Part shown: positions 6,153 to 11,285 of the stretch, in pieces | Layout of the letters: the number at the start of each line of letters is the position of its first letter | Numbering within the stretch: the stretch's first letter is position 1 | DNA from: Escherichia phage slur14 | Sequence record: NC_028448.1 | Length of the DNA stretch: 64,000 nucleotides | Strand: one strand, 5' to 3' | The notes under the pieces: model-generated | Told to the model about the DNA's origin: nothing | Seen by the model: the letters and a program-made list of their open reading frames with translations, nothing else | Database searches by the model: none | Made by a program: the position numbers and the translations under genes

Positions 6153-7393
<1,241 letters not shown>

Positions 7394-7412
<19 letters not shown>

Positions 7413-7882
7413 TCAGTGATAAAGTTATTTAAATTTTGAGTGTATTTCTTTTCATCAAAAATCTTTTGTTGTCTGCGTAGCCGCCATGGCATTTCAATGA
7501 ACGTGTACCATATCCCAGATAATATTGCTGCTGTAAAAATATTAACAAGTATAATTAAAAGAATCCAATCTTCCGTTCTGCCTACTGGACTTTCTCCAAA
7601 GAAGCAAAATACAAATGATGTCACAGGAAAACTAATAATGTACCACAGAATCATAATTTTATCTGTGAACCAATTAGCGTTCGTTAACTTAGCGCGACCA
7701 TTATGAATACATACGAACTTATCATCTGTTATAGTAGATGGCTTAACTGGTTGATATCCCATTCTAAACTCCCTAATCAACAAATTTTTCATATCTTCGG
7801 AACAACCATTCCAGTCAACTCTATCAACTGAAATGCCATCATCCCCATCATCTAAATCATACCAGCGAGTTTTTAAAATCAT
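7394..7882 (-). CDS. predicted membrane protein, member of a tandem paralogous set
   Basis: 162 aa; two hydrophobic helices; C-terminus ...FITECRKLK shared with the neighbouring ORFs. Confidence 0.55.
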
Positions 7883-8253
7883 TTAATTTTCCTACAATCA
7901 CTCACAAACTCTTCCATTGATTCATTTTCAATATAAGACATGTAGTTATTATATTCTTTTAATTGTATTTTGTAATCCTTTTTTCTTTGCCAATTTATTT
8001 TAAAATTATCATAATGAAAATATAACATGGTACCAAAGAATGAAAATAATGAAATCGCTATAGTATAATGAAGTTCACTCCAAACTTCTATTATATCTAT
8101 TATACCGCTGACGTTACTACGGATGTTTAAAATAAAACAGTCAATTAACAATCCAATAAGACTACCTGCAAGAGCTGCAAATGCTGATACGGCAAGAATT
8201 AATAGTGCCTCTGGAAACGAATATTTAACTTTATTTAGTTTTGGCTTTTGCAT
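7879..8253 (-). CDS. predicted membrane protein, paralog
   Basis: 124 aa; hydrophobic segments; C-terminus EEFVSDCRKIK; ATGA overlap with downstream gene. Confidence 0.55.
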   Translation of the reverse strand: MQKPKLNKVKYSFPEALLILAVSAFAALAGSLIGLLIDCFILNIRSNVSGIIDIIEVWSELHYTIAISLFSFFGTMLYFHYDNFKINWQRKKDYKIQLKEYNNYMSYIENESMEEFVSDCRKIK

Positions 8254-8627
8254 CGTGATTCCTTAACAAATTTCATAATTTCATCAAATTCATACGCAGC
8301 AAGTTTAAGCTGGTGTTCCTTTTTAATCTTTTTACACTGAGCTTTCCATTCACGTACACGTTTACGATAATGTCTTCCTTGATACCAGTATCCTACCCAA
8401 TTTACAGGTACTAATAAAAATGGAACTATCATTGGAAGAATTAATGTTGACGCAAATATTATATTAGATTCAATATCAGTCATAACATCTATAACTATTC
8501 CAACCCCCAGTAGAATTACAAATGATACAGCTATTACAGGACCTATTAATACATCAGTAGAAATTAGCTGGCGCTTTAATTCATACTTCAACGGTTTACT
8601 TGGAAGATACATTGATGGCTTTGACAT
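8235..8627 (-). CDS. predicted membrane protein, paralog
   Basis: ORF-track start is TTG; ATG at 8627 preceded by TAAGGAAT; two TM segments; C-terminus MKFVKESRCK. Confidence 0.5.
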   Translation of the reverse strand: MSKPSMYLPSKPLKYELKRQLISTDVLIGPVIAVSFVILLGVGIVIDVMTDIESNIIFASTLILPMIVPFLLVPVNWVGYWYQGRHYRKRVREWKAQCKKIKKEHQLKLAAYEFDEIMKFVKESRCKSQN

Positions 8628-9204
8628 ATTCTCTACATTCCTTAACAAATTTTTCTAATAATAAATCGCTTTCAAAATTGAGATTTTCTACGAATTTATC
8701 AAAAAGATCATCAACAATATTCAAGATATTCTTTTTACTAAGAATACGTTTATTTTCATGCTTCGTTTCAGAATCAACTATAAGAGTAAAGAAATATTTC
8801 TTGCCCTGAAATTTTACAGTAGTATCAATATAAAATAAATTTGACTTTTGTAAATTACGTTTAAACCGTGCATCACTTAAACTATAAACGCCAAGATAAT
8901 CATAATCGTCGTTTAAATAACAGACCGTCCATTCAGGAGAAACAAAATCAGTAAATTCAACGTCAAAATCGCATGTTAATAAATGAATTGATTCAATACT
9001 GTTAATAAGTATTCCAGGACGTATTAAAGACTTTTTACCTCTAGAAAATCCTCTAGAAAGACTTTCATCAGTTTCATATGAAGAACCCCAATAATAATTA
9101 CGTCCTTCTGCCATACGTTTAAGAGCATTTAATAATTGATCTGGAACATCAACCTGTCTTTGGAACTCTTCAAACATTGAATTGAAATCACTTTGCATTT
9201 TCAT
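8596..9204 (-). CDS. hypothetical protein sharing the C-terminal FVKECR motif
   Basis: 202 aa soluble ORF; C-terminus ...EKFVKECREYVKAINVSSK. Confidence 0.5.
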   Translation of the reverse strand: MKMQSDFNSMFEEFQRQVDVPDQLLNALKRMAEGRNYYWGSSYETDESLSRGFSRGKKSLIRPGILINSIESIHLLTCDFDVEFTDFVSPEWTVCYLNDDYDYLGVYSLSDARFKRNLQKSNLFYIDTTVKFQGKKYFFTLIVDSETKHENKRILSKKNILNIVDDLFDKFVENLNFESDLLLEKFVKECREYVKAINVSSK

Positions 9205-9224: not shown

Positions 9225-9240
9225 AGGGGCCGAAGCCCCT
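9225..9240 (-). terminator. stable UUCG-tetraloop hairpin (minus strand GGGGC-UUCG-GCCCC) downstream of the 9246..9839 gene
   Basis: Perfect 5-6 bp GC stem with UUCG loop on the transcribed strand; weak T tract, so possibly an RNA-stability element rather than a terminator. Confidence 0.4.
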
Positions 9241-9245
9241 TATCA

Positions 9246-9839
9246 TTATTTCAGAGAATTAATATATTCCTGAACATCGGCAGAGGTAGTTTCAACCCCA
9301 GAAATATTACCATTAAAGGTTTCAACTCGGGCGAGAGTATCTTCAATATCAACTTTAGTTAGCGCTGCAATTTCAACTACATCATCAGCAGTACTAATTC
9401 CAAGGGCATTTGCTGCACGAGTTTCACGGATATATTCCAATTTAACTGCAAGTTCTTGGCGAGCATCATCCAATTCAACTACTTTCTTGGCGATTTCAAT
9501 TCGCATTTCAGCATAACCATCAGCTTTAGTAGTCAACTGTTCAGCTGTTCGACGATATAGCAAGCCGAGTTTAGCATGCATTGTTACATCTTGACCTTCA
9601 GAAAGAAGCTTGCGAATTTCACGCTCTTTTGATTCGGCCTGTCGATTCTTTTCGACAATAAGTTCACGAATACGTTTTTCTTCATTAATAGATTTAACAG
9701 AAGCAGTTTTTAGATCTTTAATCTTATCAAGTAGTTTTGCTGCCGCAGCAGTATACTGTTCTTCAACAGATAAATTTTTAGCCATAGCAGAACCAAGTTT
9801 AGTGCGAATAAACTCAACAATTTTCTTCAGCATGTTCAT
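9246..9839 (-). CDS. coiled-coil protein, possibly PspA/IM30-like
   Basis: 197 aa, almost entirely heptad-like charged helices; architecture reminiscent of PspA (tentative); canonical early promoter upstream. Confidence 0.5.
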
Positions 9840-9884: not shown

Positions 9885-9914
9885 ATTATACTCTACTCCC
9901 AAGAGTTTGTAAAC
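9885..9914 (-). promoter_or_regulatory. T4-type early promoter
   Basis: Minus strand GTTTAC-18nt-TATAAT between the 9915 stop and the 9839 start. Confidence 0.65.
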
Positions 9915-10811: not shown

Positions 10812-11285
10812 TTATTTGATTTGTTTAGCAGACCAAATGCGGTCTTTAATAATTTTTTGAATGTCTTCAACATACTCTAGGTCATGAGCATGTGGATTAT
10901 CTTTGAAACTATGAGCTCGCGCAAGTTTCTGGCCTTCGGTCTTAATTATCAAAAGTTCTTTAAGAATTGCTTCATACCTAGAGATAATTCCTTTAGCAAT
11001 ATTTTTTTCTTGTGCTGCTTTAGGGTCAGCCTTAGGAGCAGGTTTACCTGAAGCCTTTGCAAAAGCAGCTCCAGTAGCAACTAAACTTTTCCAAGCCATA
11101 CTAACTGCATTCCCTGTAAATCCTTCGGCTTTCATATCACGAGCAAATTGGAATCGTGATTCATCGGAAGCATCTTTATAGGAATATTTACCCGCGGCAA
11201 TGGCAGCTTTTGCGACAGCTTGAATTTCGGTGCTAGATGCTTCATTTAACACCGCTTCATTTAAAAATTGAGCATATGATTTCAT
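10812..11285 (-). CDS. internal-protein-like protein with capsid targeting sequence (cassette)
   Basis: 157 aa; MKSYAQFLNEAVLNEA... with two LNE|A motifs; own TATAAATA late promoter upstream and terminator downstream. Confidence 0.65.
   Translation of the reverse strand: MKSYAQFLNEAVLNEASSTEIQAVAKAAIAAGKYSYKDASDESRFQFARDMKAEGFTGNAVSMAWKSLVATGAAFAKASGKPAPKADPKAAQEKNIAKGIISRYEAILKELLIIKTEGQKLARAHSFKDNPHAHDLEYVEDIQKIIKDRIWSAKQIK

What the first reader, a model, noticed from the sequence alone, without database searches (positions are those of the whole stretch)
7394..9204. Tandem array of paralogous small membrane proteins sharing a C-terminal F-V-x-E/D-C-R-K motif and a repeated junction sequence
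Four consecutive minus-strand genes end with closely related C-termini ([36 protein letters not shown]), and three have two predicted transmembrane helices. At the nucleotide level the gene junctions repeat aaatttgttaaggaat immediately upstream of the next start codon, so the conserved protein tail is encoded by a conserved ribosome-binding region. This looks like serial duplication of a gene plus its translational coupling signal. Small early membrane proteins in T-even phages include superinfection-exclusion and lysis-inhibition factors, so the set may act at the inner membrane, but function is unknown.
Basis: seen in the sequence. Interest (0 to 1): 0.5.

Follow-up and report, generated by a model that had tools for sequence, protein, structure and literature searches.

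The report
Shared C-terminal tail on T4 e.2–e.5
Four neighbouring early genes of a T4-type phage (T4 e.5, e.4, e.3, e.2), of unknown function and mostly unrelated in sequence, all end in the same short conserved helix, which evolution preserves as protein and which probably docks them to a common partner at the inner face of the cell membrane.

Summary
The window is a Tequatrovirus, 100% identical to phage slur03. The four genes are the orthologues of T4 e.5, e.4, e.3 and e.2.

All four end in h-x-x-F-[IV]-x-x-[C/S]-R. The strict form F[IV]xxC[RK] occurs three times in the whole 167-kb genome, only at these C-termini.

The tail is not a by-product of the ribosome-binding site:
- Across 47 distinct tails from 15 protein families in about 10 T4-like lineages, Phe, Ile/Val, Cys and Arg are kept while codons vary. 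Arg uses AGA, AGG, CGT, CGC, CGA and CGG.
- The AAGGA Shine-Dalgarno sequence lies on the variable residues.
- Some tail-bearing genes have no overlapping downstream gene.

The "paralogous array" reading holds only in part. e.3 and e.4 are distant paralogues in a small two-transmembrane (2-TM) family confined to T4-like phages. e.2 shares only the layout and the tail. e.5 is soluble and shares only the tail, whose F, C and R are three of its four invariant non-start residues.

The exact 16-nt repeat occurs at two junctions, not all. Junction repeats do mark precise deletions of e.2 and e.4 in related phages.

Function remains unknown. My inference is a cytoplasmic docking helix.

The parts
8596..9204 (-). 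e.5 orthologue (202 aa), soluble, ends ...LLLEKFVKECREYVKAINVSSK
   Evidence: ORF and annotation in slur03/RB3. PHROG 2607 at E = 1e-105. No TM segment. In the family alignment the only invariant residues beyond Met1 are N98, F186, C190 and R191.
8235..8627 (-). e.4 orthologue (130 aa), 2 TM, N-in/C-in, ends ...EIMKFVKESRCKSQN
   Evidence: PHROG 2604. TM segments 31-49 and 56-74, with K+R concentrated at both termini. The start MSKPSMYLPSKP is conserved in RB69 and VR20.
7879..8253 (-). e.3 orthologue (124 aa), 2 TM, ends ...ESMEEFVSDCRKIK
   Evidence: PHROG 2330. The AF2 model has pLDDT 84.8, with helix 16-49 and one continuous helix 62-123 that carries the motif at its tip.
7394..7882 (-). 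e.2 orthologue (162 aa): a 75-aa soluble N-terminal domain, 2 TM, and a tail ending ...[13 protein letters not shown]
   Evidence: PHROG 2203. TM segments 76-94 and 106-124. The Dhakavirus homologue is 31% identical and keeps ...NTLNSFIKECRK.
8632..8649 (-). Codons of the e.5 tail core FVKECR, upstream of the e.4 ATG at 8627
   Evidence: Lies within the 16-nt repeat at 8637-8652.
8253..8270 (-). Codons of the e.4 tail core FVKESR. The last base is the A of the e.3 ATG.
   Evidence: The 16-nt repeat lies at 8258-8273.
7891..7908 (-). Codons of the e.3 tail core FVSDCR. AGGAAA (R-K) serves as SD for e.2, and stop and start overlap as ATGA.
7406..7423 (-). Codons of the e.2 tail core FITECR. AGGAAA (R-K) serves as SD for nudE, and stop and start overlap as ATGA.
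   Evidence: The tail of RB69 ORF133c hits here in tblastn.
9246..9839 (-). e.6 orthologue (197 aa), a highly conserved helical protein always immediately upstream of the e.5-type gene. Candidate partner (inference).
   Evidence: PHROG 1203. 60-98% identical in 16 loci. Present in 1105 phage records.
9225..9240 (-). GGGGC-UUCG-GCCCC hairpin between e.6 and e.5
   Evidence: Annotated as a stem_loop in the T4 record L13089.
9885..9913 (-). Promoter-like TTTACA-17-TATAAT upstream of e.6; likely early promoter of the e.6-e.1 unit
   Evidence: The equivalent -35/-10 signals are annotated in L13089.
6957..7397 (-). nudE (e.1) Nudix hydrolase, the last gene coupled to the array
   Evidence: Pfam NUDIX at E = 1e-13. 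Annotation.

Best explanation
**Shown**
- e.5, e.4, e.3 and e.2 form one early, translationally coupled gene string downstream of e.6.
- Their products share a C-terminal module with consensus (D/E/N)-(S/T)-h-x-x-F-(I/V)-(K/R)-x-(C or other hydrophobic)-(R/K).
- The spacing i, i+3, i+4, i+7 places L/I/M, F, I/V and C on one face of a helix.
- By the positive-inside rule, the tail of the 2-TM proteins lies in the cytoplasm.
- The tail is under purifying selection at the protein level and occurs on at least 15 body families found only in T4-like phages.
- e.3 and e.4 are distant paralogues of one small 2-TM family. e.2 and e.5 carry the tail on unrelated bodies.
- Each tail overlaps the SD and start of the next gene, so gene boundaries are short direct repeats. 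Precise in-register deletions of e.2 and e.4 in relatives have their end points in those repeats.

**Inferred**
- The tail is a docking helix. It ties the soluble e.5-type protein and the 2-TM proteins to one common partner or complex at the cytoplasmic face of the inner membrane.
- The most obvious candidate partner is the invariably adjacent, highly conserved e.6 protein. A host protein is the alternative.
- The basic residues after the Arg are co-opted as, or shaped by, the downstream SD.
For: **Identity of the genes.**

**Motif specificity.**
- 3 of 3 strict hits in the whole genome are at these C-termini.

**Protein-level selection.**
- In 47 unique tails from 15 families: F 45/47 (TTT 36, TTC 9), C 36 (TGT 19, TGC 17), R 43 (AGA 19, AGG 7, CGT 10, CGC 4, CGA 2, CGG 1). 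AAG at position 3 occurs in only 12 of 47.
- In e.5 orthologues at 15-46% identity, the only invariant residues beyond Met1 are N98, F186, C190 and R191.
- In the 2-TM superfamily, the motif Phe is the only nearly invariant residue beyond Met1.
- Position 5 is C, I, V, M or L in remote members, such as ALDFIRGIRS and SLKFVKEVRKL.
- The motif is kept without a downstream overlap in the FLEYCR family and in L021 7345-7653.

**Homology.**
- hhalign: e3-e4 P = 1.3e-5; e3 against the L018 duplicates 94% over 106 columns.
- Tail-less HMMs give reciprocal e3/e4 hits ahead of the decoys.
- The superfamily has only 19 representatives among 1.84 billion proteins.

**Structure and topology.**
- Topology.
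- The AF2 model of e.3 has TM2 continuing as one helix to residue 123 (pLDDT 84.8), which places the motif far from the membrane.

**Synteny.**
- The order e.6, then an e.5-type gene with the tail, is kept in all 16 IMG/VR loci, in IME13 and in RB43.

**Deletions at junction repeats.**
Against: - No partner has been identified, and no multimer modelling or experiment was possible.
- The e.5 model is poor (pLDDT 56.5), so I cannot say whether its tail is free or packed against the body.
- The hydrophobic moment of the tails is only moderately above shuffled controls, 0.45-0.73 for most tails and 0.23 for one. The fraction of shuffles reaching the observed value ranges from 0.01 to 0.73.
- In e.4 of Tequatroviruses the Cys position is Ser.
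- Stalk length between TM2 and the tail varies from about 20 to 48 residues. That fits a soluble partner but is not evidence for one.
- Some similarity between tails of adjacent genes could be maintained by recombination between junctions rather than by independent selection.
Confidence: 0.5

Rival explanations
1. The shared C-terminus is only a by-product of the overlapping ribosome-binding region of the next gene. Under this reading, nucleotide-level selection for a U-rich tract plus SD happens to translate into F-V-K-E-C-R-K.
For: - All four window junctions carry the next gene's SD inside the tail codons (AAGGAA or AGGAAA), and the start lies 0-9 nt after the Arg codon.
- K, E, R and G, the residues that follow or fill the motif, are encoded by purine-rich, SD-like codons.
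Against: - The SD falls on different motif positions in e.5/e.4 and in e.3/e.2.
- Arg is encoded by both AGR (26) and CGN (17). Cys, Phe and Ile all vary synonymously.
- AAG-GAA is present in only 12 of 47 tails.
- The motif is kept where the next start is about 40 nt away (VR20 e.5) or where an intergenic spacer follows (FLEYCR family, L021 7345-7653).
- F, C and R are the invariant residues of e.5 across 15-46% identity.
Confidence: 0.04
2. All four genes descend from one ancestral small membrane-protein gene by serial tandem duplication of the gene together with its coupling signal.
For: - e.3 and e.4 are reciprocal best hits without their tails (E = 3-5e-3). They share the N-terminal KP motif, two TM segments, the juxtamembrane Y-[RK]-x-x-h-x-[EK]-[WY] motif and the tail.
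- L018 (Pectobacterium phage PM2 type) has three such genes in tandem.
- e.2 has the same 2-TM-plus-tail layout.
Against: - e.5 has no TM segment, and its body matches none of the others.
- The e.2 body gives no hit above noise. Only 19 tail columns align.
- The four genes fall in four separate PHROGs.
Confidence: 0.15
3. The tail is a membrane-targeting amphipathic helix, like the C-terminal helices of MinD or FtsA. It would bind lipid directly and bring e.5 to the membrane on its own.
For: - The pattern is amphipathic, with basic residues flanking it. The hydrophobic moment reaches 0.5-0.7 in most tails.
- The tail is present on soluble proteins encoded next to membrane proteins.
Against: - Mean hydrophobicity is negative, and acidic residues are common at positions -1, 0 and 4.
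- In the e.3 model the motif sits at the end of a rigid helix of about 40 cytoplasmic residues, pointing away from the bilayer.
- The hydrophobic face is only four residues long.
Confidence: 0.12
4. The tails bind each other. In this model e.2, e.3, e.4 and e.5 assemble through their C-terminal helices into one hetero-oligomeric membrane complex, helped by coupled and therefore stoichiometric translation.
For: - The genes are co-transcribed and coupled.
- A long solitary helix in a monomer model usually means oligomerisation.
- In all Tevenvirinae lineages sampled, an e.5-type gene is followed by 1-4 tail-bearing 2-TM genes.
Against: - In IME13 the e.5-position gene keeps the tail, but none of the annotated genes in the ~3.5 kb fetched downstream of e.6 ends in the tail motif.
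- Stalk lengths differ by up to about 28 residues.
- e.2 and e.4 are dispensable in natural relatives.
Confidence: 0.15
5. The tail is selectively neutral. It would be spread and homogenised only because recombination between junction repeats copies the 3' end of one cassette onto another.
For: - Deletion end points lie in the junction repeats.
- Hybrid tails exist: the e.3 of L006 ends CRKLK like e.2, and the e.5 of L010 ends EVRNV like e.4.
- There is an exact 16-nt identity between two junctions.
Against: - The motif is kept between genera in which the flanking nucleotides have diverged completely and the codons differ.
- It is the most conserved part of e.5.
- It is kept in an e.2 homologue located kilobases away from the array.
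Confidence: 0.04

Closest known systems
T4 genes e.5, e.4, e.3, e.2 (msp4-msp7 of GenBank L13089; PHROGs 2607, 2604, 2330, 2203)
   Same: Direct orthologues: 90% nucleotide identity to T4 over the whole segment, with the same order and overlaps.
   Different: The window has an intact 162-aa e.2, whereas T4 carries a frameshifted one of 102 aa. No function is recorded for any of them in the sources I could read.
Capsid-targeting sequence (CTS) of T4 internal proteins IPI/IPII/IPIII and Alt (own knowledge)
   Same: A short terminal amphipathic peptide shared by otherwise unrelated phage proteins, acting as an address tag. Two CTS-type ORFs lie in this window (6153-6449 and 10812-11285).
   Different: The CTS is N-terminal, is cleaved at L-x-E by the prohead protease, and sits on late or packaged proteins. 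The tail here is C-terminal, has no cleavage motif, and sits on early and partly membrane proteins.
Cargo-loading or encapsulation peptides of encapsulins and bacterial microcompartments (own knowledge)
   Same: A conserved terminal helix on unrelated proteins that are encoded next to the partner that binds it.
   Different: There is no shell protein here, and the partner is unknown.
T4 small early membrane proteins Imm, Sp and rI
   Same: Small early proteins of the inner membrane or periplasm.
   Different: No sequence similarity. The genome's own imm, sp and rI are elsewhere. Those proteins do not carry the tail.
PeSL cassettes (promoter-early stem-loop) that mediate modular shuffling in T4-type phages (PMC2839356, PMC4122927)
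   Same: Short repeated boundary sequences in hyperplastic regions, at which genes are gained and lost by recombination.
   Different: PeSLs are intergenic promoter-plus-terminator motifs. Here the repeats are coding, being the tail codons plus the SD and start of the next gene, and there is no intergenic space.

Membership tests
T4 e.2/e.3/e.4/e.5 orthologous groups | Full-length, significant match to the family profile, and the same position between e.6 and nudE | tested here: met
   PHROG 2607, 2604, 2330 and 2203 at E = 1e-105 to 2e-61, all full length. Synteny with RB3 and T4 annotation.
2-TM plus tail superfamily of T4-like phages (defined here) | N-terminal basic stretch with a K-P motif, two TM helices, juxtamembrane Y-[RK]-x-x-h-x-[EK]-[WY], and a C-terminal h-x-x-F-[IV]-[KR]-x-h-[RK] | tested here: met
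   This applies to e.3 and e.4: alignments A2 and A6, hhalign and tail-less HMM searches, and a single profile that recovers all subfamilies full length. For e.2 only the TM count and the tail are met. e.5 does not qualify.
Superinfection exclusion or lysis-inhibition proteins (Imm, Sp, rI) | Sequence similarity to those families | tested here: not met
   No Pfam or PHROG hit to them at E <= 1. imm, sp and rI are annotated elsewhere in slur03.
Translationally coupled gene string | The stop of the upstream gene overlaps or abuts the start of the downstream gene, with the SD inside the upstream coding sequence | tested here: met
   Overlaps of 32, 19, 4 and 4 nt. AAGGAA or AGGAAA lies 6-11 nt before each ATG. 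Actual coupling of translation cannot be tested with these tools.
PeSL mobile regulatory cassette | An intergenic early promoter followed by a stem-loop, flanking the variable ORF | tested here: not met
   There is no intergenic space between e.5 and nudE. The only hairpin (9225-9240) and the strong promoter-like site (9885-9913) flank e.6.
PspA/IM30 (considered for the neighbour e.6) | Match to PF04012 or to E. coli PspA | tested here: not met
   No Pfam hit.
Terminal targeting or docking peptide (functional class) | The peptide is necessary and sufficient for binding a defined partner | not testable with these tools
   Only indirect support is available: the tail is conserved on unrelated bodies and has an amphipathic pattern.

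The most novel reading that the evidence does not exclude
The tail is a previously unrecognised C-terminal address tag of T4-like phages. On this reading, a family of at least 15 unrelated early proteins, both soluble and membrane-anchored, is recruited through the same 10-residue helix to one hub at the inner membrane. The hub would be the ubiquitous e.6 protein or a conserved host target. The coding overlap of tag and next-gene start makes every gene a self-contained cassette that can be inserted or deleted in register, so the phage can swap effectors on a fixed docking platform.
Probability: 0.25. Interest if true: 0.7.

Novelty: new variant of a known kind. Interest (0 to 1): 0.45.

Why it matters
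- T4 is the best-studied phage, yet about half of its genes, including e.2 to e.8, have no known function.
- A short tail shared by unrelated neighbours and kept by selection is a concrete experimental handle. A tail peptide or tail-GFP fusion could identify the partner. Tail point mutants could reveal what the whole cluster does.
- The cluster also gives a clear example of gene boundaries in a hyperplastic phage region that are coding repeats. These allow in-register loss, and presumably gain, of genes without breaking translational coupling.
- The cluster is dispensable in natural relatives and restricted to T4-like phages, so the biological impact may be modest.

Tried and rejected
- **Pfam, NCBIfam and PDB sequence searches** of all four proteins and e.6 gave nothing above threshold.
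- **AF2 of e.5** with a 16-sequence alignment gave a poor model (pLDDT 56.5). A Foldseek search against PDB gave no hit with TM above 0.25, so there is no fold assignment.
- **Foldseek of the e.3 model** against viral structures returned only uncharacterised T4-like proteins.
- **e.6 as a PspA-like protein** was rejected.
- **The search for homologous proteins** with single e.3, and with the mixed 2-TM alignment, returned almost only close relatives. Diversity came instead from e.6-anchored loci and the representative-library search.
- **Literature searches** for e.2-e.6 and msp3-msp5 found nothing relevant. Miller et al. 2003 is not held.
- **Body homology of the IME13 and RB43 e.5-position proteins** to e.5 is not significant. 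Only the tail aligns, plus a weak match around the invariant Asn in IME13.
- **The exact 16-nt identity as evidence of recent gene conversion** is not needed. The same pentapeptide KFVKE, AT-rich codon bias and the SD explain most of it, and RB3 already differs at the Val codon.
Full report
**What the window is.** The segment 7394-9204 is 100% identical to Escherichia phage slur03 (Tequatrovirus) and about 90% identical to T4. Annotation in slur03, RB3 and the original T4 deposit L13089 (msp1-msp8) identifies the four minus-strand genes:
- e.5: 8596-9204, 202 aa
- e.4: 8235-8627, 130 aa
- e.3: 7879-8253, 124 aa
- e.2: 7394-7882, 162 aa

They lie between e.6 (9246-9839) and nudE/e.1 (6957-7397). 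A promoter-like site, TTTACA-17-TATAAT, lies upstream of e.6. A GGGGC-UUCG-GCCCC hairpin separates e.6 from e.5. From e.5 to nudE there is no intergenic base: the overlaps are 32, 19, 4 and 4 nt.

**Checking the observation.**
- The quoted C-termini are exact.
- Hydropathy gives two strong TM segments in e.4 and e.2. e.3 has one strong and one weaker segment, and e.5 has none. K+R residues are concentrated in both termini of the three membrane proteins, which implies an N-in/C-in topology with a cytoplasmic tail.
- The strict pattern F[IV]xxC[RK] occurs three times among 270 six-frame ORFs of the window, all at the ends of e.2, e.3 and e.5. It does not occur in the remaining 103 kb of the slur03 genome.
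- A relaxed pattern within the last 14 residues recovers the four genes plus one spurious ORF.
- The 16-mer AAATTTGTTAAGGAAT is exact at only two junctions. The other two junctions share TG(T/C)AGGAAA(A)TTAAA(A)TGA.

**Are the four genes paralogues?** The evidence supports this for e.3 and e.4 only.
- The four proteins fall into four separate PHROGs, with no cross-hit even at E <= 1.
- Pairwise BLASTP aligns only the tails.
- I collected 20 related loci, 16 of them by using the conserved e.6 as an anchor. I then clustered all tail-bearing ORFs by their bodies, which gave 15 body families.
- Profile comparisons link e.3 and e.4 to each other: P = 1.3e-5, and through the PM2-type triplet with probabilities up to 94% over 106 columns.
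- HMMs built without the tail find the other family at E = 3-5e-3, ahead of every decoy among 763 six-frame ORFs.
- The multiple alignment shows a common plan: an N-terminal K-P motif, TM1, TM2, a juxtamembrane Y-[RK]-x-x-h-x-[EK]-[WY], a variable linker and the tail.
- e.2 matches the superfamily profile only over 19 tail columns. e.5 matches over 11. Their bodies hit nothing.
- A profile search of 1.84 billion representative proteins finds only 19 members. The family is therefore tiny, and every member whose source I could trace is from a T4-like phage.

**Is the tail just the ribosome-binding site?** No.
- In e.5 and e.4 the SD (AAGGA) is encoded by K-E. In e.3 and e.2 it (AGGA) is encoded by R-K. 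These are different positions of the aligned motif.
- Codon usage in 47 non-identical tails from 15 families:

| Residue | Count | Codons |
|---|---|---|
| Phe | 45/47 | TTT 36, TTC 9 |
| Position 2 | 29 Ile, 11 Val, 6 Leu, 1 Ala | nine different codons |
| Cys | 36 | TGT 19, TGC 17 |
| Arg | 43 | AGA 19, AGG 7, CGT 10, CGC 4, CGA 2, CGG 1 |

- AAG at position 3 is present in only 12 of the 47 tails.
- The motif persists where the next start is about 40 nt away or where an intergenic spacer follows.
- In e.5 orthologues that are 15-46% identical, the only invariant residues beyond Met1 are N98, F186, C190 and R191.
- In the 2-TM superfamily, the motif Phe is the only nearly invariant residue beyond Met1.
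- In remote members position 5 is I, V, M or L. It is therefore a hydrophobic position rather than a reactive cysteine.
- The SD does appear to shape the residues around the core.

**What the tail looks like.**
- L/I/M at -2, F at 1, I/V at 2 and C/h at 5 follow an i, i+3, i+4, i+7 spacing. They are preceded by helix-capping D, E, N, S or T and followed by basic residues.
- Hydrophobic moments are 0.45-0.73 for most tails (one is 0.23), with negative mean hydrophobicity.
- The AF2 model of e.3 (pLDDT 84.8) has TM2 running on as one helix to residue 123, so the motif sits at the tip of a stalk of about 40 cytoplasmic residues.
- This geometry and the acidic residues argue against simple lipid binding. 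They fit a protein-docking helix.

**Distribution.**
- The order e.6, then an e.5-type gene with the tail, then 1-4 tail-bearing 2-TM genes, is kept in every Tevenvirinae lineage sampled: Tequatro-, Mosig-, Gapriver- and Dhakavirus, plus Marfa-, PM2- and KPV15-like phages.
- Additional tail-bearing soluble proteins of 94-116 aa occur nearby. An e.2 homologue in Dhakavirus, kilobases away from the array, keeps ...NTLNSFIKECRK at 31% identity.
- In Tulanevirus IME13 and Pseudotevenvirus RB43, the gene after e.6 also carries IEMFVDYCRR or LEKFIHSCKK. Body homology to e.5 is not significant there.
- In IME13, none of the annotated genes in the ~3.5 kb fetched downstream of e.6 ends in the tail motif. 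For this reason I favour a common partner over tail-tail pairing.
- e.6 is 60-98% identical across these phages and occurs in 1105 phage records. It is the obvious candidate partner, but this is inference only.

**Junction repeats and gene loss.**
- Three Tequatroviruses lack e.2. Their e.3/nudE junction is the e.3 left side joined to the e.2/nudE right side, with the crossover inside TGCAGGAAA. Their e.3 proteins consequently end ...CRKLK, as e.2 does.
- The Dhakavirus-type loci L010, L011 and L013 lack e.4. Their e.5 tail is fused in register to the e.3 start, and L010 carries a hybrid tail...EYAKEVRNV.
- The boundaries therefore behave as short direct repeats. Cassettes are removed at them without breaking either the upstream tail or the downstream coupling.
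- This resembles the PeSL-mediated shuffling described for T4-type phages (PMC2839356, PMC4122927). Here, however, the repeats are coding rather than intergenic.

**Verdict.**
- The feature is real and wider than first described.
- The RBS-by-product reading is refuted.
- The paralogue-array reading is confirmed for e.3 and e.4 only.
- The function is unknown. My best-supported mechanism is a cytoplasmic docking tail shared by unrelated early proteins, with overall confidence about 0.5. The descriptive parts are much more secure than the functional inference.
- I found no published description of the motif, but the literature available to me was limited.

Noticed in passing
L005 2811-3298 (T4); L028 2927-3235 (L13089 msp7); window 7394-7882: The e.2 of T4 itself is split by a frameshift into a 102-aa ORF and an unannotated 63-aa ORF that carries TM2 and the tail. 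The window, RB3 and many relatives have an intact 162-aa gene. The existence of PHROGs 35263 and 35580, which cover only the N-terminal and C-terminal parts of e.2, suggests the split may have been propagated as fragment families.
   Followed up: partly
L003 2857-3652 (RB69 ORF139c-136c); L004 3691-4957 (VR20 gp134-gp130); similar in L009-L020: A second tandem family lies just downstream of e.3 in non-Tequatrovirus relatives. It consists of 3-5 small soluble ORFs that all end in W-x-(x)-S-S-x-x-C at the very C-terminus. A conserved ORF of about 319 aa lies a little further downstream, in some phages after one or two intervening small ORFs. The family is absent from this window.
   Followed up: partly
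window 9246-9839 (e.6): e.6 is far more conserved (60-98% identity) and more widespread (1105 phage records, including Klebsiella, Aeromonas and RB43-type phages) than its neighbours. Some records call it 'host specificity protein'. It has no Pfam, PDB or PspA similarity.
   Followed up: partly
window 8599-8631 (e.5 residues 192-202); L004 e.5 tail: After FVKECR, e.5 carries what looks like a second, degenerate copy of the motif: E-YVKAIN here, and YAKGVQN in VR20, where the e.4 tail is FIKEVRN. This may be a scar of an earlier junction recombination.
   Followed up: no
P0007, P0017, P0032 (e.3 homologues): Some NCBI records name e.3 homologues 'sulfurtransferase' or 'DNA primase'. Nothing in the sequence supports either name, so this is probably annotation carry-over.
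   Followed up: no
window 6153-6449 and 10812-11285: Two ORFs begin with the T4 capsid-targeting-sequence pattern ([16 protein letters not shown] and MKSYAQFLNEAVLNEA), so they are internal-protein-type genes. The first sits between e and denV, where T4 has ipII and ipIII.
   Followed up: no
L006 5136-5751; L008 6101-6200: Other natural damage occurs in the array. e.5 is frameshifted in the IMG/VR Tequatrovirus L006, and e.3 is largely deleted in the Mosigvirus-type L008. The cluster is therefore dispensable in nature.
   Followed up: no
P0069-P0080 (e.5 homologues): The protein database carries a precomputed Pfam hit, PF26876.1, on Tequatro- and Mosigvirus e.5 proteins. This model is not in the local Pfam copy, so I could not read its description.
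   Followed up: no
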